Origin: a virus
Lineage: Duplodnaviria; Caudoviricetes
Direction: 5' to 3' (one strand)
Virus record (IMG/VR): IMGVR_UViG_3300047551_002158
Length of the DNA: 64,000 nt
Position numbers and translations under genes: made by a program. Below, one piece after another: positions 2 to 63,490 of the stretch (positions are counted from its first letter, which is position 1; each line of letters opens with the position of its first letter). The notes beneath the pieces were generated by a model, which ran no database searches, had not been told where the DNA came from, and was given only the letters and a program-made list of their open reading frames with translations.

Positions 2-3000
2 TCCGAAGCAAAACTTGTTCCGATAATTAATGATGGCAAAATAGTTCAGGTTTTAATTAATAATCCAGGGAAAGATTATAATTCAATACCCGATTTAAAT
101 ATTTTTACAAATGGCAACGGTAGCGGAGCGGTACTTGAGCCAATATTAGAAAATGGACAAATTAAATCAGTAAAAGTTATTGAAAATGGTTATGGATATG
201 ATAGAAATAATACATTTATAAATGTTAGTTCTGCAGGAAGTGGGGCAGAATTTGATATAAAGTTAAAAACATGGACAGTAAATCTTTTTACAAAATATTT
301 TTCTAAGATTTCTGGTGATGATGGATTTATATTTGATAACAAAAAATCAAATTATGGATTAGAATATGCACACTTATATGCACCTAGAAGACTAAGACAA
401 TCGGTATATTCTAAAAATTCTGAGGGAAAAACCATTTACGGAGTAAAAGATTTAAAAATTAATAATGTTGAAATATCTTCTTCAGAACATTCTCCAATAA
501 TTGGATGGGCTTATGATGGAAATCCAATTTATGGTCCATATGGATACTTGAATAAGGATACTGGAACAATATCTCAAATGAAGTCTGGATATGTTCTCAT
601 CGGTCTTAGTGATGACAGACCACCATTTCCCTCAGGATTTTTCGTTGAAGATTATGAATATCGTAATAGTAAAGATAATGATGTTTTGGATCAACATAAT
701 GGAAGATTCTGTATAACTCCAGAATTTCCAAACGGAACTTATGCGTATTTTGTTACGTTAGAAAAAAATGCTATTCGTAACGACTCTTCTAATCCATTTA
801 ATGGATATAAAGTACCAGCATTCCCGTATGTTATTGGCAACAGATTTAAATCAAAACCAAATGAATTTAACTTTAGTAAATTTTCAAACCAAGATGATAT
901 CAATCTAAATGAAACAAATTGGATAAGAATTACTACACAATATAATTTAGATAAAGAAGAAAATCTGTATAATTATCTAACAAAACCAAGTAAGTTGGAT
1001 CAATTAGTTACTATCAAATATGCTTCTCCTGGATCAGTAGAAAAAATTGATATTGTAAGCGGTGGAGAAGACTATAAAGTAAATGATTTAATTACTTTCG
1101 ATGAAACGGCAACAGGTGGATTCGGAATTTATGCAAAAGTTTCTGAATTAGAAGGAAAAACTATTGATAGTATTAGTGGAGTAACTTCTTCTATTTACAA
1201 TCTTGATCTGTATTCTTCTGAAGGAAATAGTAATATTTTTGTAATTCAATCAGAATCTCCTCATCGTTTTTTAAACGGAGATATTGTAACAATCAATTCC
1301 TCCGGTCTTGGTACTATTTTCTCCCCTATACAAACATCTTCTACAATTGGCGTATCTACAAATACTCTTGCAATTTCAGATAATCTTGGAATATCATCCG
1401 TATCAACTACAGGAATTGTAACTTATTTTTCTGTTTTTGGAAATCTTCTAACTTCAGGAATTCGTGAAAATGATGTTTTTTCAATTAAAAATGAAAAAGT
1501 AAAAATATTAAATGTAGATCCAAATTCTTCTAGAATTAGAGTTTTAAGATGTATTGATGGGACTATCGGATCTGCACATAGTTTTAGTGAAGTTTTATAT
1601 GAAATTCCCAGAAGATTTACAGTAAATGAAAGATATTCTCCCCTTCCAAATAATAAATTAAACAAAGAAATATATTTTGATCCGAAAGAATCTTTAGGAA
1701 TAGGAACATTATCTGGAGCTGGAATCGGGGTTACTATTTTCTTCTCAAATCCAGGTCTAGGCATCACTAGTGTTTTTGTTCCAACTAAAGCAATATACAT
1801 TCCAAATCATAATTTGGATACTGGTGATGAATTAACATATTTTACAAATTCGGGAACAGGAATATCAATATCTATAAATGGAACAACATCTTTAACTTTA
1901 TCTGATCAATCCAAAGTTTATGTTGGAAAAATTTCAAATGATTTGATAGGAATATCCACAGTTAAAGTTGGTTTTGGTTCTACTGGAACATTTGTTGGAA
2001 TTGGTAGTACAAACATTTCTTCTAGTACCTTATACTTTACTGGTATAGGAACTGGAACTTATCATAGTTTTAAAACTAATTATGAAAAAGTTACCGGACA
2101 AGCATCAAAAAATATAGTCACAGTCTCTACTGCACAAACACATGGATTGAAGAATAATGACTATGTTTCTGTTGAAGTGAAATCTGGAATTTCAACAATA
2201 TTTGTTATTAAGTATAATGACAACAATAGAAGATTAGTAGTAAATCCAAGATCTTTTTCTTCAGTTGGCGTTAATACAATTACAAATTCAATAACAATTC
2301 CAAATCATAAATTTAGAAACGGACAAAAGTTAATCTACACTTCAACTTCTCCATCTGGTGGATTAGTTAATAATAAAATATATTATGCTGTGATTTTTGA
2401 CGAAGATACAATTAAACTTTCATCTTCATTCTATGATTCCGTTTCAACAATACCTGAGATTATTTCTATAACATCTTCATCTAGTGGTACTTTATCGCCA
2501 GTAAATCCTCCGATTAAAATTTATAAAAATTCTTCAGTAACATTTGATCTTTCAGACTCTTCACTCTCATACACAGTTAATTCTGTCAAATACTCGGCGT
2601 TTAATTTTAATTTATATCTCGATTCAAAGATGTCGAAAGTTTTTGAAACGACATCTTCAAACACTACTTTTGAAGTGCAAAAATCAGGCAGCATTGGAAT
2701 AAATTCTACAGCAAAAGTTACATTAAAAATAAATGACAATATACCAGAAGGTTTGTTTTATAATTTAGACGTACTATATTCCGAATTAATTCCCAGCGAA
2801 AAGGAAGAAATAAAAGTAGATGATTCGGTTTTTTCAAATAATCAAATTCAAATAGTTGATAGTGAATATAATGGAAAGCATAGAATTGTTTCCACCTCTT
2901 CAACATCCTTTACTTATAATATACAAAATATTCCAGAAGCTAATCTTTATGATTCTACAAATTCAACTTTAAGTTATAAAACAGAATCTTTAAACAGTTT

Positions 3001-5497
3001 TGGGACTATTTCCAATATTAATCTTTTGTCAAAAGGACAAAATTATTATACGCTTCCAAATATTTCAAAAATTATTTCAGATAATGGAAAGAATGCAATT
3101 TTAGAAGCTTCAAGTACATCAATAGGAAAAATACAAAAAACAACTATTAATAATATTGGATATGATTTCCCATCTGATTTTACATTAAAACCAAATTTAT
3201 CTTTACCGCAAATTTTAAAAATAGAGCCATTAAATTCTTTTGATTCAATTGGAATTACATCTGTTGGTAGAGGATATGTAACTGTTCCAAAATTAGTTGT
3301 TATTGATACAAAAACAAAAGAAATTTTATCGGAAGTTGATTTAACTTATTCTTTTGGAGATACAAAAGTAACAATTTTAAATAATACTTACAGACTTAAT
3401 GATGTTGAACCTATTATTATACCAACTCAAAATTCAAATGGTGTTGGAATCAGTTCTATTAGTTATAATTCAACAACTAATGATGTAACTGTCACTTTAT
3501 CTGTCGGATTTAGTACTGCAAACACTTTCCCATTTTCTATTGGAGATAAAGTTCTTATAGAAAATATAAGTGTTGGAATTGATTCAACTGGAAAAGGATT
3601 TGATTCCAAAAATTACAATTATGAACTTTTTACGATTACTTCTGTCGATGAAAATCTTGGTGGAGAGGGAGGATCAGTAATTTATAACTTATACGAATTT
3701 TTGGGTGATGGAGAAGTTCCTGGATCTTTTGATGCTGAAAATTCTTCTGGAAGAATAATCCCAGAGAAATATTTTCCAAAATTTAAATCAACATTAAAAC
3801 CAAATAATTTTTCAAAAAATGAAGAAGTTAGATATTCCGGAGAAGCAAGATCTATTGGATTTGTCCAAAATTGGAATGAAAAAATTAAGCAATTGACAAT
3901 TTCTTCTAAAGAGTATTTGGAAGAGGGAAAAATTCTTGAGGGGGTTTCATCAAGAACTCAAGGATCTATTTCATCTTCAATTTCTCCAAATGCTTTTATT
4001 AATCTTGGATCTTATTCAAAATCAGAAAATGGATGGATTGATGAAACTGGTATTTTAAATAACAACTTACAAAGAATACAAGATAATTTTTATTATCAAA
4101 ATTTCTCATACTCATTAAGATCTAGAGTTTCTTATGATACTTGGGATGATGTTGTTGGAAGTCTCAACCATACATCAGGATTCAAAAAATTTAGTGATTA
4201 TCAGTTAGAATCTATTGGAAATTGTGGCATTCAAACATATACCGATTCCAATGCGGAAGTGAATGTTGATATTAATGGTTTTGCTAGTTTAAATTGTGTT
4301 TATGATTTTGATTTAGCAAGAGAGAATGCTTTATTTACAAATTCACAAGTTATATCTGATGAAATAACATTTTCTAGCAGAATCCTAACAGATTATCTGG
4401 AATCAGTCAGTAATAGGGTTCTTTCTATAGATGATATTAGCAATTTGTTCAATAGTAATGAGAGATTGACAAGATATTTCATTGCCCATAGATTTAAACT
4501 TACTGATGCTAGAGCACAAAAATACATTACCTTAACTGAAGATAGAAGATATTCTTCACAAAGGCAATTGATGATTTTAACTTTACTTCATGACAATTCT
4601 GAAGGATATATTAATCAATATGGAAGGGTAGAAACTACATATGATTTAGGATCTTTTGATTTTACTATAGATGGAACTGATGGTTTAATATTATTCTATC
4701 CCACAAAATATAGAGTAAATGATTATAATGTTACAGTTCTTTCTTATAATATAAAAGATAACTTTGCGGGAATTGGAAGTACTAATATTGGTGGTATTGT
4801 TGATATAAAAACAAATACTATTCCTGCTTTAACTTCTCCAACAACTATTGTTGGAATTGGATCTACATATACTTCATCAAAAATATTGGTGTCAGTTGGT
4901 ACTACAAATAATGATTATCAATTTGATGAATTAAATGTTGTTCATGACGGAACAAATGTGGAATTTATATCTTATGGGCAGTTGACAAATACTTTATATT
5001 CAAGTTCTGGTCTTGGAACATATAATGCTTACATATCAGGATCAAATTTAAATGTAGATTTTATTCCCAATGTCGGAGTTGCAGCATCAGTAAGCACTAT
5101 TCAAGTGTCTATTGCAAATACGTCTTCTTCGGGTATTGGAACTCTCACAATGAACTATATGAAGTTTGAAGCGAACTCAGTTTCAATAGCATCTTCAACA
5201 AATCCAATACAAAATGTTATAGCGGAATATTCTAATGATTATGAAGGTGGATACTTTATAGTTCAAGTATCTGATGTCACTAACAATAGACATCAACTTT
5301 CCGAAGTTGCTCTCGTAAATGATAATAATTATGCATATCTTACAGAGTATGCAAATATAGAAACTTATTCTGGTCTCGGAACTATGGGAGCAGAAAAAAC
5401 ATTAAATAAAACACAGCTAACATTTACGCCACTTGCAAACATTGATGTTGTTGTTAAAGTTTGTTTTAACTCTCTTAGTAATATTATAGTCAGTTAG
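2..5497 (+). CDS. Very large virion/baseplate structural protein with YHYH-type domain (5'-truncated by window edge)
   Basis: The reading frame is open from position 2 (SEAKLVPIINDGKIVQV...), so the ORF-track start at 548 is internal. YHYH-like motifs HSPIIGWAYDGNPIYGPYGY and LDQHNGRFCITPEFPNGTYAYFVT; Ser/Thr/Gly-rich beta-repeats; lies upstream of gp8 as in cyanomyovirus baseplate modules. Confidence 0.75.
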   Translation, partial: SEAKLVPIINDGKIVQVLINNPGKDYNSIPDLNIFTNGNGSGAVLEPILENGQIKSVKVIENGYGYDRNNTFINVSSAGSGAEFDIKLKTWTVNLFTKYFSKISGDDGFIFDNKKSNYGLEYAHLYAPRRLRQSVYSKNSEGKTIYGVKDLKINNVEISSSEHSPIIGWAYDGNPIYGPYGYLNKDTGTISQMKSGYVLIGLSDDRPPFPSGFFVEDYEYRNSKDNDVLDQHNGRFCITPEFPNGTYAYFVTLEKNAIRNDSSNPFNGYKVPAFPYVIGNRFKSKPNEFNFSKFSNQDDINLNETNWIRITTQYNLDKEENLYNYLTKPSKLDQLVTIKYASPGSVEKIDIVSGGEDYKVNDLITFDETATGGFGIYAKVSELEGKTIDSISGVTSSIYNLDLYSSEGNSNIFVIQSESPHRFLNGDIVTINSSGLGTIFSPIQTSSTIGVSTNTLAISDNLGISSVSTTGIVTYFSVFGNLLTSGIRENDVFSIKNEKVKILNVDPNSSRIRVLRCIDGTIGSAHSFSEVLYEIPRRFTVNERYSPLPNNKLNKEIYFDPKESLGIGTLSGAGIGVTIFFSNPGLGITSVFVPTKAIYIPNHNLDTGDELTYFTNSGTGISISINGTTSLTLSDQSKVYVGKISNDLIGISTVKVGFGSTGTFVGIGSTNISSSTLYFTGIGTGTYHSFKTNYEKVTGQASKNIVTVSTAQTHGLKNNDYVSVEVKSGISTIFVIKYNDNNRRLVVNPRSFSSVGVNTITNSITIPNHKFRNGQKLIYTSTSPSGGLVNNKIYYAVIFDEDTIKLSSSFYDSVSTIPEIISITSSSSGTLSPVNPPIKIYKNSSVTFDLSDSSLSYTVNSVKYSAFNFNLYLDSKMSKVFETTSSNTTFEVQKSGSIGINSTAKVTLKINDNIPEGLFYNLDVLYSELIPSEKEEIKVDDSVFSNNQIQIVDSEYNGKHRIVSTSSTSFTYNIQNIPEANLYDSTNSTLSYKTESLNSFGTISNINLLSKGQNYYTLPNISKIISDNGKNAILEASSTSIGKIQKTTINNIGYDFPSDFTLKPNLSLPQILKIEPLNSFDSIGITSVGRGYVTVPKLVVIDTKTKEILSEVDLTYSFGDTKVTILNNTYRLNDVEPIIIPTQNSNGVGISSISYNSTTNDVTVTLSVGFSTANTFPFSIGDKVLIENISVGIDSTGKGFDSKNYNYELFTITSVDENLGGEGGSVIYNLYEFLGDGEVPGSFDAENSSGRIIPEKYFPKFKSTLKPNNFSKNEEVRYSGEARSIGFVQNWNEKIKQLTISSKEYLEEGKILEGVSSRTQGSISSSISPNAFINLGSYSKSENGWIDETGILNNNLQRIQDNFYYQNFSYSLRSRVSYDTWDDVVGSLNHTSGFKKFSDYQLESIGNCGIQTYTDSNAEVNVDINGFASLNCVYDFDLARENALFTNSQVISDEITFSSRILTDYLESVSNRVLSIDDISNLFNSNERLTRYFIAHRFKLTDARAQKYITLTEDRRYSSQRQLMILTLLHDNSEGYINQYGRVETTYDLGSFDFTIDGTDGLILFYPTKYRVNDYNVTVLSYNIKDNFAGIGSTNIGGIVDIKTNTIPALTSPTTIVGIGSTYTSSKILVSVGTTNNDYQFDELNVVHDGTNVEFISYGQLTNTLYSSSGLGTYNAYISGSNLNVDFIPNVGVAASVSTIQVSIANTSSSGIGTLTMNYMKFEANSVSIASSTNPIQNVIAEYSNDYEGGYFIVQVSDVTNNRHQLSEVALVNDNNYAYLTEYANIETYSGLGTMGAEKTLNKTQLTFTPLANIDVVVKVCFNSLSNIIVS

Positions 5498-54789: not shown

Positions 54790-57281
54790 GATTTTATACT
54801 AATGTTCAGTTGATTGGAAATCAAATTTTAGTTCGTGGAGTTGAGAATGGAAAAAGATTTGAGAACAGAGATGAGTTTTATCCCTCTCTCTTTGTAAAAA
54901 CTAAAAAGGAATCCAAGTATAGAACATTAAGTGGAGAATCTGTAGAACCAATAAAACCAGGAACAATTAAAGATTGTCGTGAGTTTTATAAAAAGTATGA
55001 GAGTGTTGATGGATTTGAGATCTATGGAAATGATCGATATATCTATCAATACATTTCGGAAAACTATCCTGAAGATGAAATCAAGTTTGATATCAGTAAA
55101 ATCAAACTGGTGACTTTGGATATTGAGGTTGCTTCTGAAGGAGGATTCCCTGATGTGGAATCAGCATCGGAAGAAATTCTTTCAATCTCTATTCAAGATT
55201 ATACAACTAAAAAAATCATTACTTGGGGTGTTAAACCATTTAATCACAATCGCAAAGACCTCACATATCATTATTGTCCTTCAGAGTATGAACTTCTAAA
55301 TCACTTCATTAACTATTGGATGTTCAATGTCCCCGATGTAATTACTGGTTGGAACATTCAGATGTATGACGTTCCTTATATTTGTAAGCGTCTGAATCGT
55401 GTTCTTGGTGAAAAACTGATGAAGCGTTTTTCTAACTGGGGTCTTGTTACTGAAGGCGAAATATTCGTCAACGGTCGTAAGCATACCGTATTTGATGTTG
55501 GTGGGTTAACTCAACTTGATTATCTTGATCTTTATAAGAAATTTACTTATAAGGCACAGGAATCTTATCGTCTGGATTATATTGCTGAAGTAGAACTTGG
55601 GCAGAAAAAACTGGATCACTCTGAGTATGATACCTTTAAGGATTTCTATACAAAGGGTTGGCAAAAGTTTATTGAATACAACATCATTGACGTAGAACTT
55701 GTTGACCGCTTGGAAGACAAGATGAAACTCATTGAGTTGGCACTTACTATGGCATATGACGCTAAGGTAAATTATGCAGATGTATTTTATCAAGTTCGTA
55801 TGTGGGATAACATTATCTACACCTATCTGAAGAAAAGAAATATCGTTATTCCTCCAAAGAATAAAACTCAGAAAGATGAGAAGTATGCTGGTGCCTATGT
55901 AAAAGAACCAATTCCTGGAATGTATGACTGGGTAGTGAGCTTTGACCTTAACTCTCTGTATCCTCACTTGATTATGATGTACAACATCTCACCAGAGACT
56001 TTGTTGGAAGAGAAACATCCAACAGTTTCGGTGGACAAAATTCTTAATCAAAGTCTTAATTTTGAGTTATATAAAGACTATGCAGTATGTGCTAATGGAG
56101 CGATGTTCCGAAAAGACGTTCGTGGATTTCTTCCTGAACTAATGGAGAAGATTTACAATGAACGTGTTATCTTTAAGAAGAAGATGCTTGTTGCTGAACA
56201 AGAATATGAGAAGACGAAGAACAAGGAGTTAATCAAAGAGATTGCCAGATGTAATAATATTCAGATGGCACGTAAGATCCAACTGAACTCTGCTTATGGT
56301 GCGATTGGTAATCAGTATTTTCGTTATTACAAACTTGCAAATGCTGAGGCAATTACACTGTCTGGACAAGTTTCGATTCAGTGGATTATGAATAAGGTTA
56401 ATTCTTATCTAAACAAGATTCTAAAAAGTGGAGATGTAGATTATGTTATTGCTTCTGATACTGATTCTTTGTATATCAATATGGGTCCTTTGGTTGAAAA
56501 TGTATTCAAAGGAAGAGAGAAAACTACTGAAAACATTGTGTCTTTCCTTGATAAGGTGTGTCAGGTGGAATTTGAAAAATATATTGAGAGTTCTTACCAA
56601 GAATTGGCTGATTATGTGAATGCTTATGAGCAGAAAATGTATATGAAGCGTGAGTGTGTCGCTGAACGTGGAATTTGGACTGCTAAGAAGCGTTATATTC
56701 TCAGTGTTTGGGACAGTGAAGGTGTTCGATATGAAGAACCCAAACTCAAAATCAAGGGTATTGAAGCAATCAAATCTTCTACTCCAGCACCTTGTCGTAA
56801 GATGTTGAAAGAATCATTTAACATTATGATGAGTGGTTCTGAAGATGATATGATTAACTTCATTGAAAAGTCTAAACAAGAGTTTAAGAAACTTTCTCCG
56901 GAACAAATTGCCTTTCCACGATCTGCTTCTGATGTTCAGAAGTATTCATCTTCTTCGGATGTTTATATTAAAGGAACCCCAATTCACGTTCGTGGAGCAC
57001 TTTTGTTCAATTTTTATATTAAAAAGAATAAACTTACAAACAAATATTCTTTGATTCAAAATGGAGAAAAGATCAAGTTTGTTTACCTCAAAAAACCAAA
57101 TATCATTCACGAAAATGTAATCTCATTTATTCAGGAGTTTCCGAAAGAACTCAATCTTGACAAATACATAGATTATGAACTACAATTTGAGAAAGCATTT
57201 CTAGAGCCACTCAAAATTATTCTTGATACAATTGGGTGGAGCGTAGAAAAAACTGTAAACCTTGATTCATTTTTTGCGTAA
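54786..57281 (+). CDS. gp43: Family B DNA polymerase gp43
   Basis: Exonuclease LDIE; polymerase motifs SFDLNSLYP, KIQLNSAYG and SDTDS; uninterrupted. Confidence 0.98.
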   Translation: MRFYTNVQLIGNQILVRGVENGKRFENRDEFYPSLFVKTKKESKYRTLSGESVEPIKPGTIKDCREFYKKYESVDGFEIYGNDRYIYQYISENYPEDEIKFDISKIKLVTLDIEVASEGGFPDVESASEEILSISIQDYTTKKIITWGVKPFNHNRKDLTYHYCPSEYELLNHFINYWMFNVPDVITGWNIQMYDVPYICKRLNRVLGEKLMKRFSNWGLVTEGEIFVNGRKHTVFDVGGLTQLDYLDLYKKFTYKAQESYRLDYIAEVELGQKKLDHSEYDTFKDFYTKGWQKFIEYNIIDVELVDRLEDKMKLIELALTMAYDAKVNYADVFYQVRMWDNIIYTYLKKRNIVIPPKNKTQKDEKYAGAYVKEPIPGMYDWVVSFDLNSLYPHLIMMYNISPETLLEEKHPTVSVDKILNQSLNFELYKDYAVCANGAMFRKDVRGFLPELMEKIYNERVIFKKKMLVAEQEYEKTKNKELIKEIARCNNIQMARKIQLNSAYGAIGNQYFRYYKLANAEAITLSGQVSIQWIMNKVNSYLNKILKSGDVDYVIASDTDSLYINMGPLVENVFKGREKTTENIVSFLDKVCQVEFEKYIESSYQELADYVNAYEQKMYMKRECVAERGIWTAKKRYILSVWDSEGVRYEEPKLKIKGIEAIKSSTPAPCRKMLKESFNIMMSGSEDDMINFIEKSKQEFKKLSPEQIAFPRSASDVQKYSSSSDVYIKGTPIHVRGALLFNFYIKKNKLTNKYSLIQNGEKIKFVYLKKPNIIHENVISFIQEFPKELNLDKYIDYELQFEKAFLEPLKIILDTIGWSVEKTVNLDSFFA

Positions 57282-58288
57282 TGGACTTCCTTAAAGATAT
57301 TGTAAAAGAAATAGGTGATGATTTCACTAAGTTAGCATCTGATATTGAAGAGACTGAAACTTATGTTGACACGGGTTCGTACATTTTTAATGCACTGGTT
57401 TCAGGTAGCATTTTTGGTGGTGTATCTGGGAATAAGATTACTGCTATTGCTGGAGAGTCTAGTACTGGAAAGACTTTCTTCTCTCTCGCTGTGGTTAAGA
57501 ATTTTCTGGATACTCACCCCGATGGTTATTGTCTCTATTTTGATACTGAGGCTGCCATCACTAAATCTCTTCTAGAAAGTCGTGGTGTAGATACTCAACG
57601 TCTTGTGGTTGTTAATGTTGTTACTGTGGAAGAATTTCGCACTAAAGCACTTAAGGCAGTTGACCTTTATATGAAAAAACCTGAAGGTGAACGCAATCCT
57701 TGTATGTTTGTGTTAGACTCTTTGGGAATGCTTTCTACAAGTAAAGAAATCACTGATGCACTGAATGAAAAAGAAGTTAGAGATATGACTAAATCTCAAC
57801 TGATTAAAGGTGCCTTCCGAATGCTCACACTAAAATTAGGTCAAGCAAATGTTCCACTTCTTGTCACAAATCACACATACGATGTCATCGGAGCTTATGT
57901 ACCAACGAAAGAAATGGGTGGAGGTTCTGGACTCAAATACGCAGCCTCTACAATCATTTATCTCAGCAAGAAGAAAGAAAAGGATGGAACGGAAGTGGTC
58001 GGAAATCTTATCAAGGCTAAGACTGCTAAATCGCGTTTGAGTAAGGAAAATAAAGATGTGGAGATTCGTCTTTTTTATGATGAACGTGGTTTAGACAGAT
58101 ATTATGGTCTTCTTGAACTCGGTGAGATTGGTGGTCTGTGGAAGAATGTCGCAGGACGCTATGAGATTGATGGAAAGAAACTCTATGCTAAGCAGATTCT
58201 TAAAGAACCTGAAGTATATTTCACTGAAGAAGTGATGCAACAGTTGGACGAAATCGCACGTAAGGAATTTAGTTATGGAGAAAGTTGA
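57281..58288 (+). CDS. uvsX: RecA-like recombinase UvsX
   Basis: GESSTGKT, FVLDSLGML, TNHTY and MGGGSGLKYAAS. Confidence 0.96.
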   Translation: MDFLKDIVKEIGDDFTKLASDIEETETYVDTGSYIFNALVSGSIFGGVSGNKITAIAGESSTGKTFFSLAVVKNFLDTHPDGYCLYFDTEAAITKSLLESRGVDTQRLVVVNVVTVEEFRTKALKAVDLYMKKPEGERNPCMFVLDSLGMLSTSKEITDALNEKEVRDMTKSQLIKGAFRMLTLKLGQANVPLLVTNHTYDVIGAYVPTKEMGGGSGLKYAASTIIYLSKKKEKDGTEVVGNLIKAKTAKSRLSKENKDVEIRLFYDERGLDRYYGLLELGEIGGLWKNVAGRYEIDGKKLYAKQILKEPEVYFTEEVMQQLDEIARKEFSYGES

Positions 58289-59606
58289 GTTTCTAATTCT
58301 TAGAAACCTGTTGTTTAATGAAGAATATATCCGAAAAGTAATACCTTTTCTAAAGTCTGAATATTTTGAAGACCAAAATCAAAAGATTGTCTTTGAAGAA
58401 ATTCTTGAATTTGTTTCTCACTACAATCAACCAGCAACTAAAGAAGTTCTTTGTATTGAAGTAGAAAAACGTAACGACATTAACGATACTTCTTTTAAAG
58501 AAATTCTTCAGTTGATCTCTTGTCTTGAGGATGTTCCTGTTGAGATGAACTGGTTGATTTCAACAACCGAAAAATGGTGTCGTGATAGAGCAATTTATCT
58601 TGCTCTTATGGAGTCAATTCATATTGCCGATGGTAAAGATGAAAAGAAGAATCGTGATAGTATTCCTTCTATTCTCTCTGATGCTCTTGCTGTAAGTTTT
58701 GATAATCATATTGGACACGATTATCTTGAAGATTATGAACAACGCTATGAGTCTTATCATAAAAAGGAGGATAAAATTGAATTTGATCTTGAGTACTTTA
58801 ACAAAATCACGAAAGGTGGTCTCCCTAACAAAACTCTTAACATCGCTCTTGCTGGTACGGGCGTCGGCAAGTCTTTATTCATGTGCCATGTGGCTAGCTC
58901 CGTCTTGCTCCAAGGACGGAACGTTCTGTACATTACGCTGGAGATGGCAGAAGAACGCATTGCTGAAAGAATTGATGCAAACCTCTTGAACGTCCCTATT
59001 CAGGATATTGTTGATCTTCCCAAGCAGATGTTTGAGAATAAGGTCACAAATCTTGCAAAGAAGACTCAAGGAACTCTTATAATTAAGGAATACCCAACAG
59101 CGTCTGCTCATGCTGGTCACTTTAAGTCACTTCTTAATGAACTTTCACTTAAGAAGTCATTTAGACCTGATATTATTTTTATTGATTACCTTAATATTTG
59201 TGCTTCCAGCAGGTATAAAGGAAACAGCAATATCAATTCATATACATTTGTTAAAGCAATTGCTGAGGAACTTAGGGGGCTCGCAGTTGAGTTTAATGTC
59301 CCAATCGTATCCGCTACTCAGACCACTCGTTCAGGTTATTGCTTGGACTTGAAAACACAAGTTCAAACACAGCAAGGATTGAAAGATATTTCTAACATTC
59401 AAGTTGGGGATTTAGTGCTTTCTAATACTGGTTATAATGAAGTATTGAATGTCTTTCCTAAAACTAAAAAGAAATCTTATAAAATTACTTTGGAGAATGG
59501 TAAAGAAATCATTTGTAGTGAAGAGCATTTGTTCCCAACAGAAAATGGAGAACTGAATATCAAAGGGGGTCTTGAAGAGGGAATGTATCTTTATGTAAAG
59601 GAATAG
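58275..59606 (+). CDS. gp41: Replicative helicase gp41, N-terminal fragment fused to split-intein N half
   Basis: Walker A AGTGVGKS and IFIDY; SATQTTRSGY is followed by intein block A CLDLKTQVQT. Confidence 0.95.
   Translation: MEKVEFLILRNLLFNEEYIRKVIPFLKSEYFEDQNQKIVFEEILEFVSHYNQPATKEVLCIEVEKRNDINDTSFKEILQLISCLEDVPVEMNWLISTTEKWCRDRAIYLALMESIHIADGKDEKKNRDSIPSILSDALAVSFDNHIGHDYLEDYEQRYESYHKKEDKIEFDLEYFNKITKGGLPNKTLNIALAGTGVGKSLFMCHVASSVLLQGRNVLYITLEMAEERIAERIDANLLNVPIQDIVDLPKQMFENKVTNLAKKTQGTLIIKEYPTASAHAGHFKSLLNELSLKKSFRPDIIFIDYLNICASSRYKGNSNINSYTFVKAIAEELRGLAVEFNVPIVSATQTTRSGYCLDLKTQVQTQQGLKDISNIQVGDLVLSNTGYNEVLNVFPKTKKKSYKITLENGKEIICSEEHLFPTENGELNIKGGLEEGMYLYVKE
59340..59603 (+). mobile_element. 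Split intein N-fragment (gp41-1 type, 88 aa)
   Basis: Begins with Cys1 (CLDLKTQV), contains block B CSEEH, and ends at a stop codon. Confidence 0.95.
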
Positions 59607-59611
59607 TGTGT

Positions 59612-59651
59612 GTAAGTTATACTTCTTATAAATAATAGTAGTATAACTTAC
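59612..59651 (+). promoter_or_regulatory. 12-bp perfect inverted repeat enclosing late promoter TATAAATA
   Basis: GTAAGTTATACT (59612-59623) / AGTATAACTTAC (59640-59651); TATAAATA at 59627-59634; endonuclease ATG at 59656. Confidence 0.75.
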
Positions 59652-59655
59652 TGAT

Positions 59656-60321
59656 ATGAAAGTAAAGATTTATCTAATTACCAACACAGCAGTCAATCCA
59701 CATATGTATTATGTTGGATTGACTAAAAATGAACTGGATAGAAGATTACAAGAACACATTACTCTTGGAAGGCACGAAGGTAATAAACTTTTGTCTGATG
59801 CTATTATTGAATATGGTAAAAGAAACTTTACTATTGAAGTTATAGAAGAAGTTGATGAGAGTGAAGCAAGAATAAAAGAAGATTATTATATCCGTAAATA
59901 TAAATCTCATTATGTGGATGGGTGTGGATATAATATGAGATATGAAACTTGTAATTATAAAAAACATTATCACGGAGCAAATCAAGAACAGATAGAAGAG
60001 AACATTAAAAATGGAAGAGTGTGGAATTATGGAATAAGTTTTTCTTCACAATCAAAAGAGAAAATGAGAAAAACTAAAAAACATAGATACTCTCTGGGAC
60101 TTTATAAAAAGTTTAATACAAATCACTCACAAGAAACAAAAGAAAAAATTGCTGAAAGTAAAAGAGGACAAAAACTATCACAAGAGCACAGAAAAAATAT
60201 TGCTAAATCTTCTTCTGGTAGAGTTTGGATTTCTAATACTGAATTGAATGAAAGAAAGTTTGTAAAGCAAGATGAGTTGGAAATGTTTTTGGAAAGTGGT
60301 TGGAAGAGAGGTAGGATATAA
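59656..60321 (+). mobile_element. GIY-YIG homing endonuclease between the two gp41 halves
   Basis: KIYLITN...YYVGLT...RLQEH...E motif, HSQETKEKI NUMOD3 repeats and C-terminal GRVWISN...GWKRGR. Confidence 0.88.
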
Positions 60322-60344
60322 ATACCTAAAAAGTATTATCAAAA

Positions 60345-60803
60345 ATGGACGCACAAGATTTTCGTAGTCTTCAAGAAGCATATATGGAAGTTGTTATGAA
60401 TGAAGCAAAGAAACCTTTTCCATTTGAAAAGGTTTCTAATAAATCAAAGTCCAAAGAAAAACAAAAATTACAATTAAAAAAAGATGTTGAGGGTGGTTTA
60501 ATTTCTCATAAAAGAGCAACTCCATTAATTTCTAAACTTGTTAATCAAAAAGTTAAAATGGGTATGGTTTGGGCAAAAGAAAGAGAAAAGAAAAAAGAAG
60601 ATGATAATTCAAAAAGGTCTTCAACATTCTATAGAAAAGATAAGCATTTATCAAAAATGACTAAAACTCAAAGAGAACAAGTAGATATTTACGACATCAT
60701 CCTTTCACATTTACTTGATGAAGGATATGCTGAAACACCAGAAGCAGCAGAAGCAATTATGGTGAATATGAGTGAAGAGTGGAGACAGAGTATTATTGGT
60801 TGA
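60345..60803 (+). CDS. Passenger hypothetical protein inside the fractured gp41 locus
   Basis: 152 aa with its own TATAAATA (60317-60324); the C-terminal DEGYAET...NMSEEW domain is shared with 61960-63315. Confidence 0.8.
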   Translation: MDAQDFRSLQEAYMEVVMNEAKKPFPFEKVSNKSKSKEKQKLQLKKDVEGGLISHKRATPLISKLVNQKVKMGMVWAKEREKKKEDDNSKRSSTFYRKDKHLSKMTKTQREQVDIYDIILSHLLDEGYAETPEAAEAIMVNMSEEWRQSIIG

Positions 60804-60825
60804 TTACCAAAATAAAATTCAATCC

Positions 60826-60865
60826 AACCACTCACCTTGATTTTGGTGAGTGGTTTTGTTATAAT
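60826..60865 (+). promoter_or_regulatory. Hairpin plus sigma70 promoter for the gp41 C-terminal half
   Basis: AACCACTCACC/GGTGAGTGGTT inverted repeat; TTGATT (60837-60842)-N17-TATAAT (60860-60865). Confidence 0.7.
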
Positions 60866-60884
60866 GTGAGAAGGTAAGAACTCT

Positions 60885-60995
60885 ATGATGCTGAAAAAAA
60901 TTCTAAAAATTGAAGAACTTGATGAAAGAGAAATGATAGATATTGAAGTATCAGGAAATCACTTGTTCTATGCGAATGCTATTCTCACACATAAT
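60885..60995 (+). mobile_element. Split intein C-fragment (37 aa)
   Basis: Block F (DIEVSGNHLFYAN) and terminal His-Asn followed by Ser+1. Confidence 0.95.
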
Positions 60996-61307
60996 AGTAG
61001 TTCTGATGTTGAACTTACTGATACTTCTGAATCCTTTGGTCTCCCTGCTACTGCTGATCTTATGTTTGCCCTTATTAGCACTGAAGACTTGGAGGGGCTT
61101 GGTCAGATATTGGTGAAACAACTGAAGAACCGTTATAATGATCCTACCATTCATAAGCGTTTTGTGATTGGTATTGACCGCGCTAAAATGCGTCTTTATG
61201 ATTGCGAACAATCTGCTCAAAATGATATCCTTGACAATGGAAAGGATGAAGAGTATGATTACGAAGAAAAGAAACCTAAAAAATCATTTGAAGGATTTAA
61301 ATTCTAA
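60885..61307 (+). CDS. gp41: Split-intein C half fused to the C-terminal fragment of gp41 helicase
   Basis: MMLKKILKIEELDEREMIDIEVSGNHLFYANAILTHN|SSSDVELTDTSESFGLPATADLMFAL...QLKNRY: intein HN/S+1 junction followed by gp41 C-terminal motifs. Confidence 0.95.
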   Translation: MMLKKILKIEELDEREMIDIEVSGNHLFYANAILTHNSSSDVELTDTSESFGLPATADLMFALISTEDLEGLGQILVKQLKNRYNDPTIHKRFVIGIDRAKMRLYDCEQSAQNDILDNGKDEEYDYEEKKPKKSFEGFKF

Positions 61308-61308
61308 T

Positions 61309-61722
61309 ATGACTCAAGTTATTGATACAAACAAATATATTGAATTCGTTCGTCAAACTACAAGTCCTGCGAGCAGTGATTTTGCTCAACTGCTTTCTCG
61401 TCTGACTGAACTTGAAGCAAGTGCTGATGCAGATGTTCCCCGCCTTCTCACTGCTGCTCTTGGTATGAGTGCTGAAGCAGGAGAGTTTACTGAAGTTGTT
61501 AAGAAAATTATTCTTCAGGGCAAACCTTATAATGAAGAGAATGCTTTTCACCTGAAGCGAGAACTTGGAGACATCTGTTGGTATCTGTCTCAAGCATTTA
61601 TGGCACTTGATACTAACTTTGAAGAGATTCTCAAGATGAACTATGAGAAACTGAGTGCTCGTTATCCTGAAGGAACCTTTGATGTTTATCGTTCTGAAAA
61701 TCGTGTGGAGGGAGACCTGTGA
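61309..61722 (+). CDS. mazG: MazG-family nucleoside triphosphate pyrophosphohydrolase
   Basis: ALGMSAEAGEFTEVVKK, ELGDICWY and NYEKLSARYP; ATG at 61309. Confidence 0.9.
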   Translation: MTQVIDTNKYIEFVRQTTSPASSDFAQLLSRLTELEASADADVPRLLTAALGMSAEAGEFTEVVKKIILQGKPYNEENAFHLKRELGDICWYLSQAFMALDTNFEEILKMNYEKLSARYPEGTFDVYRSENRVEGDL

Positions 61723-61959: not shown

Positions 61960-63315
61960 ATGGATCCTAAAATTCTGAGAGAAGCAGCTCTTGCATATCA
62001 AGCAGTTTATGACCAAGATCTGCGTCAGGAAATTGAAGAGCAGCAAGACTTTGAGAACTGGGTAAATTCACTTGTAGAAGAAGGTTATGACCTGAGTGAG
62101 TATACCTGGGAAGATATGTATGAAACATATATAACAGAAATTGCCGTTCCTCCGAAAGATCCAGCAGCTGCCCGTGCTCAAAGTGCAGCTGCTGCACAAG
62201 GATTTCGCAATATTGGTAATGCAGTTAGAACAGTAGCAAATCCTATGGGTGCTATTGTTAGAGGTATGCAGGATGCAACTACTCGCTATAGGGCAGCAGG
62301 TCCTCGTGATGTTAAAGGTAGACCATTAAATCAAAAACCAACACAAACTCCAGCAAAACCAACATCATCCTCAACTCAATCTCGTTTTTCTGGAGCAAGA
62401 GACGCTGCAGTTGCAAGAGCAAGACAAATTCAAGGTTCTCCTGTAGTTGGATCAAAACCCTCTACAGGTTCTGCAGCAAGACCTTCTGCAGCACCAGCAG
62501 CAAGACCTTCTGGTGGTTCTTCTGCTCCTGCAGCAAGACCAGCAGCATCCGCACCAACTGCAAAACCATCACCAACCCCATCTGCAGCTGCACCAGCAAA
62601 ACCAACTCCAGCACCTTCAACTCCTGCGGCAAAACCATCTGCGATGGATCAGTGGGCAAAGGCAAATCCAAAACTTGCTGCAGCAAAAGCAGAAAGAGAT
62701 AGAACAAGAGGAACAAGTTCAACAACTAATCCTCAAATGGCAGACTTGAAGAGCAAACTTCCTGCGCCAAAATCGCCATCACCAACTACAACATCAACAG
62801 CATTTGCAAAACCAACTCCAGCATTAGGATCATCTTCATCTGCAGTTCAGTCTGGAGGTTCTGCGGCAGCTTCTAGACCATCAACCAATCAAACTGCAAC
62901 TGCATTTTCTAGTCCTTCTTTAGCAAGGTCATCATCTTCAACACCAGCAGCAAAACCAACTCCTATGAAGAAACCTATGGGTTCTTCAAAACCAGGAAGT
63001 CTTGTTTCTGGTTTTGATTTGTTTGATGTTGTAAAGGGATATTTGATTGATGAGGGATTTGCTGAAACTGAACAGGCAGCAATTGCTATTATGGCAAATA
63101 TGAGTGAAGAGTGGAAACTTGAAATTATTAGTGAAATGAGTCCTACAATGCAGAAACTTACTTCAAGACCATCTGTAAACATTGGTGGAGGTAGTTCATC
63201 GGGTTCAAGACCATTAACAACTTCTTCTGCGGCAAAAAAACCTACTACACAATCTAATAGTGGGTTAACTCCAATGCAGAGATTGCAAAGACCAGCAAGT
63301 GGAACTATCCAATAA
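61960..63315 (+). CDS. 451-aa late protein with long Pro/Ala/Ser/Thr-rich linker
   Basis: Acidic N-domain, AARP/AKPTP repeats and a C-terminal DEGFAET...NMSEEW domain. Confidence 0.8.
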   Translation: MDPKILREAALAYQAVYDQDLRQEIEEQQDFENWVNSLVEEGYDLSEYTWEDMYETYITEIAVPPKDPAAARAQSAAAAQGFRNIGNAVRTVANPMGAIVRGMQDATTRYRAAGPRDVKGRPLNQKPTQTPAKPTSSSTQSRFSGARDAAVARARQIQGSPVVGSKPSTGSAARPSAAPAARPSGGSSAPAARPAASAPTAKPSPTPSAAAPAKPTPAPSTPAAKPSAMDQWAKANPKLAAAKAERDRTRGTSSTTNPQMADLKSKLPAPKSPSPTTTSTAFAKPTPALGSSSSAVQSGGSAAASRPSTNQTATAFSSPSLARSSSSTPAAKPTPMKKPMGSSKPGSLVSGFDLFDVVKGYLIDEGFAETEQAAIAIMANMSEEWKLEIISEMSPTMQKLTSRPSVNIGGGSSSGSRPLTTSSAAKKPTTQSNSGLTPMQRLQRPASGTIQ

Positions 63316-63342
63316 ATAATTACGGAAGGTTGCTCTAACCCC

Positions 63343-63371
63343 TTGACTTTTTAGTTGAGGGGTTTTATAAT
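63343..63371 (+). promoter_or_regulatory. Sigma70-type promoter for tRNA-Ala
   Basis: TTGACT-N17-TATAAT within the AACCCCT/AGGGGTT hairpin. Confidence 0.75.
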
Positions 63372-63381
63372 ATCCGAACTT

Positions 63382-63453
63382 GGGGTGTTCGTATAACGGC
63401 TATTACTCTGGATTTGCATTCCAGCAATAAGGATTCGATTTCCTTACACTCCA
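63382..63453 (+). tRNA. tRNA-Ala (anticodon UGC), no encoded CCA
   Basis: Acceptor stem GGGGTGT/ACACTCC with G3:U70 alanine identity pair; anticodon stem CTGGA/TCCAG with loop TTTGCAT; T-arm AAGGA-TTCGATT-TCCTT. Confidence 0.92.
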
Positions 63454-63490
63454 TTATAAAAAGAATAATAAATACTTGAAAAAAAGTATT

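What the first reader, a model, noticed from the sequence alone, without database searches (positions are those of the whole stretch)
58275..61307. Fractured gp41 helicase reassembled by a gp41-1-type split intein
Seen: gp41 breaks at ..TRSGY|CLDLKTQV (88-aa IntN, then stop) and resumes about 1.3 kb later as MMLKKILK..THN|SSSDVEL (37-aa IntC). Splicing would restore TRSGYSSSDVELTDTSESFGLPATAD, a continuous helicase motif. Established: such fractured genes with an intervening endonuclease are known from environmental phage DNA, and gp41-1 is a very fast split intein used in protein engineering. From memory of gp41-1, this is a close natural variant (e.g. TQQGLKD for TPQGMKE, EMID for ELID, NAIL for NDIL). 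An essential enzyme depends on trans-splicing, here seen in full genomic context.
Basis: partly seen in the sequence, partly recalled or inferred. Interest (0 to 1): 0.85.

Follow-up and report, generated by a model that had tools for sequence, protein, structure and literature searches.

The report
Cyanophage helicase gene split by intein
A T4-like cyanophage's replicative helicase gene (gp41) is broken in two by a natural variant of the well-known gp41-1 split intein, with a homing-endonuclease gene and a passenger gene in the gap; it is real, but it is a kind described in 2009 and common in freshwater and estuarine viral metagenomes.

Summary
ORF 58275-59606 encodes the gp41 N-extein (355 aa, ending TRSGY) plus an 88-aa IntN. 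ORF 60885-61307 encodes a 37-aa IntC plus a 103-aa C-extein beginning SSSDVEL. The halves match the solved gp41-1 intein (PDB 6QAZ) at 76/87 and 35/37 residues. All splicing residues are present and invariant in 46 related loci. The joined exteins (458 aa) align without a gap at the junction to intact cyanophage gp41.

The intein halves and the endonuclease are under purifying selection (dN/dS 0.10-0.16). They are far less diverged at synonymous sites than the host gene, which points to a mobile unit. The 1,281-nt gap holds four things:
- a conserved hairpin with a TATAAATA leader;
- a 221-aa GIY-YIG-type endonuclease gene;
- a 152-aa passenger gene of unknown function;
- a terminator-like hairpin overlapping a sigma-70-like promoter just before IntC.

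No second gp41 lies in the window or in four long related contigs. The window's whole genome could not be searched.

This is the "fractured gene" arrangement of Dassa et al. 2009 (gp41-1 to gp41-7). IMG/VR holds 51 such loci, and the window's architecture is the commonest class. I score it a new member of a known kind, of modest interest. Other first-stage notes of this scan already described this stretch and its parts.

The parts
57281..58288 (+). uvsX (RecA-like recombinase). It overlaps the gp41 start by 14 nt. Same upstream neighbour as in the published gp41 fractured loci.
   Evidence: Pfam RecA E 6e-18; ORF list; Dassa 2009 text
58275..59339 (+). gp41 N-extein, 355 aa (DnaB N-domain plus the RecA-like core up to ...QTTRSGY)
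   Evidence: Pfam DnaB_C E 7e-18 and DnaB N-domain; PHROG 19 E 3e-110; colinear with intact gp41
59340..59606 (+). IntN, 88 aa (Cys1 ... LYVKE) plus stop codon
   Evidence: PDB 6QAZ gp41-1 intein, E 5e-47, 76/87 identical. Cys1 and the block KEIICSE-HLFPT are invariant in 46 loci.
59612..59651 (+). Leader hairpin of the endonuclease gene: 12-bp perfect arms (59612-59623 and 59640-59651) with TATAAATA (59627-59634) in the loop. The 3' arm ends 4 nt before the ATG.
   Evidence: Sequence; fold -15.8 kcal/mol, z -2.9; motif position; 96-100% nt identity to the window in the eight loci compared and near-invariant across 19 aligned loci, with one pair changed on both sides in two sequences. The same element is described in Dassa 2009 Fig. 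4A.
59656..60321 (+). Free-standing homing-endonuclease gene, 221 aa, GIY-YIG type with a NUMOD3-like motif
   Evidence: PHROG 314 (E 2e-22) and PHROG 5123, 'GIY-YIG motif' (E 5e-11). Residues invariant with relatives: Y6, Y19, G21, R30, H34, E75, N93. The best fold matches of a poor model are the I-TevI catalytic domain (prob 0.98) and then UvrC GIY-YIG. dN/dS 0.16.
60317..60324 (+). Second TATAAATA (T4-late-promoter-like), overlapping the endonuclease stop codon, 20 nt before the passenger ORF
   Evidence: The motif count in the whole window is not above chance (9 found against 6.6 expected), so position is the only support.
60345..60803 (+). Passenger ORF, 152 aa, unknown function (PHROG 3708). 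It has a conserved 17-aa N-end and 39-aa C-end and a hypervariable basic core.
   Evidence: Its C-end is 58% identical to that of ORF 61960-63315. Homologues sit at the same place in 15 IMG/VR loci that show both intein halves.
60826..60855 (+). Terminator-like hairpin (11 bp, 6 GC, then a T-run)
   Evidence: -22.7 kcal/mol, z -3.1. Conserved in 13 related loci, with 95% of cells paired, but covariation is not above the controls.
60837..60865 (+). Sigma-70-like promoter TTGATT-17-TATAAT with TG before the -10, overlapping the hairpin. AAGG lies about 10 nt before the IntC ATG.
   Evidence: The segment from about 60841 to 60887 is almost entirely invariant in 14 loci. No transcript mapping was done.
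60885..60995 (+). IntC, 37 aa (MMLKK...ILTHN)
   Evidence: PDB 6QAZ, 35/37 identical. DIEVSGNHLFY and LTHN are invariant in 46 loci. dN/dS 0.10.
60996..61307 (+). gp41 C-extein, 103 aa, beginning with the +1 Ser (SSSDVEL...), plus stop codon
   Evidence: Matches T4 gp41 (PDB 8DTP) residues 362-436, E 2e-14; PHROG 19; colinear with intact gp41
61309..61722 (+). mazG-like pyrophosphatase, the downstream neighbour (context)
   Evidence: Pfam MazG E 1.5e-6. Same neighbour in related phages.

Best explanation
The phage makes its replicative helicase gp41 from two genes. Gene 1 gives the first 355 residues of gp41 fused to an 88-residue IntN. Gene 2 gives a 37-residue IntC fused to the last 103 residues. 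The two intein halves associate into a Hint fold and carry out protein trans-splicing (Cys1 thioester, attack by the +1 Ser, cyclisation of the terminal Asn). This releases a 458-residue helicase with a native peptide bond at TRSGY-SSSDVEL. The break was made, and is spread among cyanomyoviruses, by a mobile unit: the intein plus a free-standing GIY-YIG homing-endonuclease gene. Translation of that gene is probably held off on early read-through RNA by a leader hairpin. It would be released on late transcripts that start at the TATAAATA inside the hairpin. In this allele the gap has also taken up a passenger gene followed by a terminator-like hairpin and a sigma-70-like promoter, so the C-half is probably transcribed on its own. 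Shown here: the anatomy, homology to gp41-1, conserved catalytic residues, purifying selection, the step in synonymous divergence at the intein borders, and the absence of a second gp41 nearby. Inferred: the splicing itself, endonuclease activity and target, transcription starts and stops.
For: Homology to the solved, experimentally fast-splicing gp41-1 intein: 76/87 and 35/37 residues identical (splicing activity as cited in PMC10882715). Cys1, the block-B His, the HN end and the +1 Ser are invariant in 46 loci. The joined exteins are colinear with intact gp41, 458 aa against 458 and 459. dN/dS is 0.12 for IntN, 0.10 for IntC, 0.16 for the endonuclease and 0.07 for the exteins. Third-position identity among loci jumps from 52-63% in the N-extein to 76-86% in IntN exactly at the junction. 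It falls from 80-91% in IntC to 45-66% in the C-extein. Locus L020 has exteins 66-69% identical at nucleotide level, against IntN 90, leader 100, endonuclease 94 and IntC 94%. No second DnaB_C-type gene lies in the window or in four related contigs of 117-154 kb. The same locus type is held by metagenome runs of 17 studies. Contigs from RNA libraries bridge extein, IntN, leader and endonuclease (records 6 and 21). The arrangement, the hairpin and TATAAATA match the published gp41-1 to gp41-7 loci.
Against: Nothing here shows the spliced protein. The window's full genome could not be searched for another helicase. The RNA-library contigs do not prove transcription, because DNA carry-over is possible and they are 90-98% relatives rather than this phage. 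Both hairpins are conserved mainly in sequence, and covariation is too sparse to prove RNA structure. The sigma-70-like promoter count in the region is at chance level (19 found against 17.6 expected), so that promoter rests on position and conservation only. Pfam's intein and Hint models score below their curated cut-offs. The endonuclease model is poor (pLDDT 57). IntN here has Asn53 where all 34 other distinct IntN sequences have Asp; its effect is unknown.
Confidence: 0.9

Rival explanations
1. The two halves assemble non-covalently through the intein halves, or through the helicase fold itself, and work without splicing. This would resemble the endonuclease-split NrdA of Aeromonas phage Aeh1.
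For: Split phage enzymes that work without an intein are known (Aeh1 nrdA, as discussed in PMC2677866). No spliced product was observed here.
Against: Every residue needed for the chemistry (Cys1, block-B His, terminal His-Asn, +1 Ser) is invariant across 46 loci. The +1 Ser replaces the Gly of the four intein-less cyanophage alleles examined. The intein is about 90% identical to one that splices very fast in vitro.
Confidence: 0.04
2. The locus is a decaying gene: gp41 was inactivated by the insertion, and the phage relies on another helicase of its own or of the host.
For: The whole genome could not be searched. Endonuclease-less derivatives in relatives show the element does degenerate.
Against: Both extein halves have dN/dS of about 0.07 and both intein halves about 0.1. 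There are no frameshifts or internal stops. No second gp41 lies in the window or in four related contigs of 117-154 kb. gp41 appears once at this uvsX-to-mazG position in the related phage records inspected.
Confidence: 0.04
3. Assembly artefact: a chimeric contig that joins an intein-containing fragment to a cyanophage backbone.
For: The window probably comes from an uncultured source. No deposited phage record holds this intein.
Against: The same order (uvsX, gp41-N, IntN, endonuclease, passenger, IntC, gp41-C, mazG) recurs on dozens of independent IMG/VR contigs and in runs of 17 studies. It was also assembled independently from GOS reads in 2009.
Confidence: 0.01

Closest known systems
gp41-1 split intein (GOS metagenome; Dassa et al. 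2009, PMC2677866; crystal structure PDB 6QAZ)
   Same: Same host protein and same insertion site (after TRSGY, before SSSDVEL). Same split point (88 + 37 aa) and same catalytic residues. 76/87 and 35/37 residues are identical.
   Different: There are 13 substitutions: 11 in IntN (Q11P, L14M, D16E, T42S, N53D, E68Q, N69T, L72M, K75S, E79K, Y83C, written window-to-6QAZ) and 2 in IntC (M17L, A32D). Asn53 is unique to the window among 35 distinct IntN sequences. Ala32 of IntC is the commonest natural allele.
'Fractured gene' loci gp41-1 to gp41-7 (Dassa et al. 2009)
   Same: uvsX upstream, a GIY-YIG endonuclease gene between the intein halves, and a leader hairpin with TATAAATA.
   Different: In the published loci the endonuclease 3' end usually overlaps the IntC start by 6-69 bp. 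Here the endonuclease is the short 221-aa form, followed by a passenger gene, a terminator-like hairpin and a promoter-like site. The paper does not describe a passenger gene or methyltransferase in the gap, nor a terminator-promoter module before IntC.
Aeromonas phage Aeh1 nrdA split by the mobE endonuclease gene (Gibb and Edgell, as cited in PMC2677866)
   Same: An essential DNA-metabolism gene is split by a free-standing endonuclease gene whose translation is controlled by a hairpin containing a late promoter.
   Different: Aeh1 has no intein, and the halves assemble non-covalently.
Fractured gp41 of Shigella phage ESh36 (Tequatrovirus, GenBank ON528746, marked UNVERIFIED)
   Same: gp41 lies in two ORFs with a 332-aa ORF between them. 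Its IntN is 46% identical to the window's.
   Different: Its insertion site is 12 residues further on (after ...SDIAE, before SAGLPATAD), and the intervening ORF is different. It is therefore not allelic.
Cyanobacterial DnaE split intein (Ssp/Npu)
   Same: A naturally split intein rebuilds an essential replication protein by trans-splicing.
   Different: The DnaE halves lie at separate genomic loci with no endonuclease. Here the halves are 1.3 kb apart with the mobile genes still in place.

Membership tests
gp41-1-type (cyanophage-like gp41) split intein | Inserted in T4-like cyanophage gp41 at the site given as position 356 of P-SSM2 gp41 (between TRSGY and SSSDVEL) | tested here: met
   Junction alignment to intact gp41; the same flanks in 46 loci; site as described in PMC2677866
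gp41-1-type (cyanophage-like gp41) split intein | Close sequence similarity of both halves to gp41-1 | tested here: met
   PDB 6QAZ: IntN E 5e-47, 76/87 identical; IntC 35/37 identical
gp41-1-type (cyanophage-like gp41) split intein | Splicing residues present: Cys1, block-B His, penultimate His, terminal Asn, +1 Ser | tested here: met
   All present in the window and invariant in relatives
gp41-1-type (cyanophage-like gp41) split intein | Split at the canonical endonuclease-insertion position into separate ORFs (88 + 37 aa), with a stop after IntN and a start at IntC | tested here: met
   ORF list and sequence
gp41-1-type (cyanophage-like gp41) split intein | Protein trans-splicing activity | not testable with these tools
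   Inferred from about 90% identity to an intein reported as ultra-fast (PMC10882715)
Fractured-gene arrangement (Dassa 2009) | A free-standing homing-endonuclease gene between the two split-intein halves of one conserved enzyme gene | tested here: met
   ORF 59656-60321; PHROG homing-endonuclease families
Fractured-gene arrangement (Dassa 2009) | Leader hairpin with a TATAAATA late-promoter element just upstream of the endonuclease start | tested here: met
Fractured-gene arrangement (Dassa 2009) | The endonuclease 3' end overlaps the IntC start (seen in 15 of the published loci; frequent, not obligatory) | tested here: not met
   The endonuclease ends at 60321 and IntC starts at 60885, with a passenger gene and a terminator/promoter-like module between them. 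Relatives with the 254-aa endonuclease do abut or overlap IntC.
GIY-YIG homing endonucleases | GIY and YIG motifs plus the catalytic Arg, Glu and Asn in an N-terminal domain of about 90 aa | tested here: met
   KIY (4-6), YVG (19-21), R30, E75 and N93 are invariant across relatives down to 36% identity. PHROG 5123 E 5e-11. The equivalence to I-TevI R27, E75 and N90 is from memory.
GIY-YIG homing endonucleases | GIY-YIG fold | tested here: inconclusive
   The model is poor (pLDDT 57). The top Foldseek hits are the I-TevI catalytic domain (E 0.026, prob 0.98) and UvrC GIY-YIG. The Pfam GIY-YIG model did not match at E 0.01 or better.
GIY-YIG homing endonucleases | Cleaves the intein-less or endonuclease-less allele and promotes homing | not testable with these tools
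   Indirect only: the element is much less diverged than the host gene, with a sharp step at the intein borders.

The most novel reading that the evidence does not exclude
The split-intein gap has become a cargo slot. In this allele, and in 15 IMG/VR loci, a passenger cassette has replaced the endonuclease-IntC overlap. The cassette is a gene with conserved ends and a hypervariable basic core, followed by a terminator and a sigma-70-like promoter. As a result the two helicase halves would be transcriptionally independent. That would be the step the 2009 gene-breaking model required (a new terminator and a new promoter) but did not observe, lying between 'fractured' and fully dispersed split-intein genes. 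Cargo in this slot would then ride on endonuclease homing between phages. In other relatives the slot holds an N6/N4 DNA methyltransferase gene or other unknown ORFs.
Probability: 0.35. Interest if true: 0.5.

Novelty: new member of a known kind. Interest (0 to 1): 0.3.

Why it matters
[quoted passage not shown] This window places a natural allele (13 substitutions) in 64 kb of its phage genome. The 35 distinct IntN and 26 distinct IntC sequences collected here map which positions vary in nature. That is useful for choosing or engineering variants.

Biologically, the locus shows an essential replication enzyme that appears to depend on protein splicing, and a mobile unit (intein plus endonuclease) moving among divergent cyanophages. 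The gap's passenger gene and its own terminator and promoter hint at how fractured genes become independent genes. None of this changes current understanding. It extends a known picture.

Tried and rejected
- **Whole-genome search for a second gp41:** no genome is held for this window. As a substitute I searched the window by tblastn and four long related contigs.
- **Megablast and tblastn against 50,697 phage records:** no record holds this intein. The best IntN match is 46% identical, in a Shigella phage.
- **Laying reads across the whole locus:** Only 57800-60560 could be laid on RNA-library contigs.
- **phmmer of the endonuclease against PDB sequences:** no meaningful hit.
- **AlphaFold model of the endonuclease:** poor, pLDDT 57. 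Foldseek gave only weak I-TevI and UvrC matches.
- **Covariation tests on both hairpins:** too few changes to prove RNA structure.
- **TATAAATA count in the window:** not above chance.
- **Search for a second copy of the terminator/promoter module in the window:** none found.
- **Atlas search with the passenger protein:** only unnamed viral clusters scoring below 0.9.
- **Complex prediction for IntN with IntC:** not run, because a solved structure at about 90% identity already exists and a pass would not have changed my odds.


Full report
**1. What is there**

The ORF list shows a 443-aa ORF at 58275-59606 and a 140-aa ORF at 60885-61307, both on the + strand.
- **First ORF.** It carries a DnaB N-domain and a DnaB_C/RecA-like core (Pfam E 7e-18; PHROG 19 'DnaB-like replicative helicase' E 3e-110) up to ...QTTRSGY. 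It then continues for 88 residues from Cys (CLDLKTQV...) to a stop.
- **Second ORF.** It opens with 37 residues (MMLKK...ILTHN) and then SSSDVEL..., which matches T4 gp41 (PDB 8DTP) residues 362-436.
- **Match to gp41-1.** The 88-aa and 37-aa pieces match the solved 'cyanophage-like gp41-1 intein' (PDB 6QAZ) at E 5e-47 (76/87 identical) and E 2e-15 (35/37 identical).

**2. Would splicing rebuild a helicase?**

The joined exteins give 458 aa. They align to the uninterrupted gp41 of Synechococcus phages S-SRM01 (459 aa) and SynMITS9220M01 (458 aa) with one gapped column in the whole alignment and none at the junction.

The intein-less alleles read TRSG(F/Y)-GSSDVEL. The +1 Ser needed for splicing therefore replaces a Gly. 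Two intein-less alleles seen as loose ends of RNA-library contigs also have Gly there. T4 has Asp.

**3. Is the intein kept functional?**

A scan of IMG/VR with IntN found 51 loci. tblastn with each part of the window's locus mapped their anatomy.
- **Invariant residues.** In 46 IntN and 46 IntC copies (35 and 26 distinct sequences), these are invariant: Cys1, KEIICSE-HLFPT (block B with its His), DIEVSGNHLFY, LTHN and the +1 Ser.
- **Selection.** Pairwise Nei-Gojobori dN/dS is 0.12 for IntN, 0.10 for IntC and 0.16 for the endonuclease, against 0.07 for the exteins.
- **Window-specific residues.** The window keeps every conserved residue. Its only private substitution is Asn53 in IntN, where all the others have Asp. 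Its 'ANAILTHN' is in fact the commonest natural allele, and the published 'ANDILTHN' is a minority form.

**4. Is it the only gp41?**

tblastn of the exteins against the 64-kb window finds nothing else. In four related IMG/VR contigs of 117-154 kb (56-73% complete by CheckV) the DnaB_C model finds only the fractured gene, plus a sub-threshold hit on uvsX. The window's own genome is not held, so this point stays open for this phage. Other first-stage notes on the same genome mention no second gp41. Those notes are unchecked.

**5. The gap (59607-60884)**

- **(a) Leader hairpin.** A perfect 12-bp hairpin (59612-59623 with 59640-59651) has TATAAATA in its loop, and its 3' arm ends 4 nt before the ATG. 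This 49-nt leader is 96-100% identical to the window's in the eight loci compared and nearly invariant across 19 aligned loci. One pair is changed on both sides in two sequences (L042 and the distant L050 group). It is the element drawn for gp41-1 in Dassa 2009 Fig. 4A and is likened there to the Aeh1 mobE hairpin. The likely logic, inferred by analogy, is as follows. On early read-through RNA the hairpin hides the translation start. Late transcripts begin inside the loop, lack the 5' arm, and are translated.
- **(b) Endonuclease gene.** The 221-aa ORF (59656-60321) hits PHROG homing-endonuclease families (E 2e-22; 'GIY-YIG motif' E 5e-11). It has KIY, YVG, R30, H34, E75 and N93 invariant against relatives down to 36% identity, and a weak NUMOD3 motif. 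A poor model (pLDDT 57) still ranks the I-TevI catalytic domain first and UvrC GIY-YIG next.
- **(c) Passenger gene.** A second TATAAATA (60317-60324) precedes a 152-aa ORF (60345-60803) of PHROG 3708, function unknown. The family keeps 17 N-terminal and 39 C-terminal residues almost unchanged around a basic core that differs in both sequence and length (114-198 aa in relatives). The 451-aa ORF at 61960-63315 shares the C-end.
- **(d) Terminator/promoter-like module.** An 11-bp GC-rich hairpin with a T-run (60826-60855) overlaps TTGATT-17-TATAAT with an extended -10 (60837-60865). AAGG follows, then the IntC ATG. This module is highly conserved in the 13 other loci aligned, but covariation is too thin to prove the RNA structure. 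The promoter rests on position and conservation only.

**6. Evidence that the unit is mobile**

- **Lower synonymous divergence.** dS is 3-4 times lower in the intein and endonuclease (0.38-0.60) than in the exteins (1.2-1.5).
- **Step at the borders.** Among all pairs of loci, third-position identity steps from 52-63% to 76-86% exactly at the N-junction. It steps from 80-91% to 64-66%, then 45-62%, after the C-junction.
- **Individual pairs.** L020 has exteins 66-69% identical at nucleotide level, against IntN 90, leader 100, endonuclease 94 and IntC 94%.
- **Intein-less relatives.** All 312 matching phage records have gp41 without the insert. Intein-less alleles also occur in the same RNA-library runs as relatives of the split allele.

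This is the pattern expected of homing. It does not prove that this endonuclease is the agent.

**7. Variety among relatives**

Of the 46 loci that show both halves:
- 8 have a 254-aa endonuclease alone, abutting or overlapping IntC. This is the published type.
- 15 have the window's type: a 221-aa endonuclease, a PHROG-3708 passenger and the module. Three of these carry an extra 56-aa ORF.
- 3 carry an N6/N4 DNA methyltransferase gene after the endonuclease.
- 7 carry a 177-187-aa unknown ORF.
- 3 carry other small ORFs.
- 6 have lost the endonuclease and keep a 75-aa remnant of that 177-187-aa ORF in a 234-nt gap, like published gp41-7.
- 1 has the passenger alone.
- 3 form a distant group (IntN 68% identical, endonuclease 38%).

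The window is therefore a typical member of the commonest class.

**8. Where it occurs**

Runs that hold the stretch or close relatives are freshwater, estuary, lagoon and aquaculture metagenomes from 17 studies. [quoted passage not shown] The nearest deposited phages by extein are Synechococcus myoviruses such as the freshwater S-SRM01.

In RNA libraries, contigs 94-98% identical to the window bridge extein, IntN, leader and endonuclease (59304-59810 and 59541-59688). This is compatible with read-through transcription but does not prove it.

**9. Comparison with what is known**

Dassa et al. 2009 (PMC2677866) described seven allelic gp41 loci with exactly this break, uvsX upstream, a GIY-YIG gene in the gap, the hairpin and TATAAATA, and purifying selection. 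gp41-1 was later shown to splice very fast and is widely used (PMC10882715, citing Carvajal-Vallejos 2012). It was also crystallised (6QAZ).

The window meets every testable membership feature. The exception is the frequent, non-obligatory overlap of the endonuclease 3' end with IntC.

The paper does not describe a passenger gene or methyltransferase in the gap, nor a terminator-promoter module before IntC. Its gene-breaking model states that a full break needs a new terminator and a new promoter. The window's module may be that step. I give this reading about one chance in three, pending transcript mapping.

**10. Verdict**

The locus is a new natural allele of a known split intein in a known arrangement, and it is common in uncultured freshwater and estuarine cyanomyoviruses. 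Interest is modest. Its value lies in natural-variant data for a much-used tool and in the passenger and promoter elaboration of the gap.

Earlier first-stage notes of this scan on the same stretch (hairpin, passenger gene, C-half promoter) agree with what I found independently before reading them (then 34-36).

Noticed in passing
window 60345-60803 and 61960-63315; L009, L012, L018-L024, L033-L037, L042, L046-L048: A gene family (PHROG 3708, unknown function) has a near-invariant 17-aa N-end and 39-aa C-end (...DEGYAETPEAAEAIMVNMSEEW...) around a hypervariable basic core of very different lengths. Members sit inside intein gaps. In L042 one lies between the halves of a second split intein with no endonuclease.
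   Followed up: partly
L005:4493-6000, L032:634-2819, L042:1309-3394; contiguous form in L025:842-2332: Some relatives carry a second intein in gp41, at the P-loop (ALAG / TGVGKS). In L005, L032 and L042 it is split atypically into an N-piece of about 15 aa (CVHPETKVKIRFRK...) and a long C-piece, so gp41 is encoded in three pieces. In L025 the same intein is contiguous. The window lacks it. From memory, it resembles the short-IntN 'VidaL T4Lh' type.
   Followed up: partly
L054 (Shigella phage ESh36, ON528746): 1382-2767, 2751-3749, 3739-4362: A deposited Tequatrovirus record (marked UNVERIFIED) has gp41 fractured by a related split intein (IntN 46% identical). The insertion site is 12 residues downstream of the gp41-1 site, and a 332-aa ORF lies in the gap.
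   Followed up: partly
L006:1543-2394 (also L008 and L011): In three relatives the split-intein gap carries an N6/N4 DNA methyltransferase gene (Pfam E 3.5e-29) after the endonuclease gene. Other relatives carry a 177-187-aa ORF or small unknown ORFs there.
   Followed up: partly
L043:490-705 and L035:2431-2970: tblastn shows further intein-like segments in relatives: one inside uvsX (L043), and a second IntN/IntC-like pair in the gp41 C-extein region (L035).
   Followed up: no
window 63330-63375 and 63381-63454: After the 451-aa ORF there is another hairpin with TTGAC in it, followed by TATAAT, then tRNA-Ala (tgc). This has the same compact terminator-plus-promoter design as the module before IntC, which suggests it is this phage's usual punctuation between cassettes.
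   Followed up: partly
window 60996-60998 (+1 codon); L001:3790-3792, L002:4066-4068: All 46 intein-bearing alleles have Ser at +1. The four intein-less cyanophage alleles examined have Gly, so the spliced helicase differs from its intein-free relatives by Gly to Ser at a conserved motif.
   Followed up: partly
L045:1894-2643: One relative has a second, divergent DnaB-like segment (37% identical to the N-extein core) directly after the fractured gp41 and before mazG.
   Followed up: no
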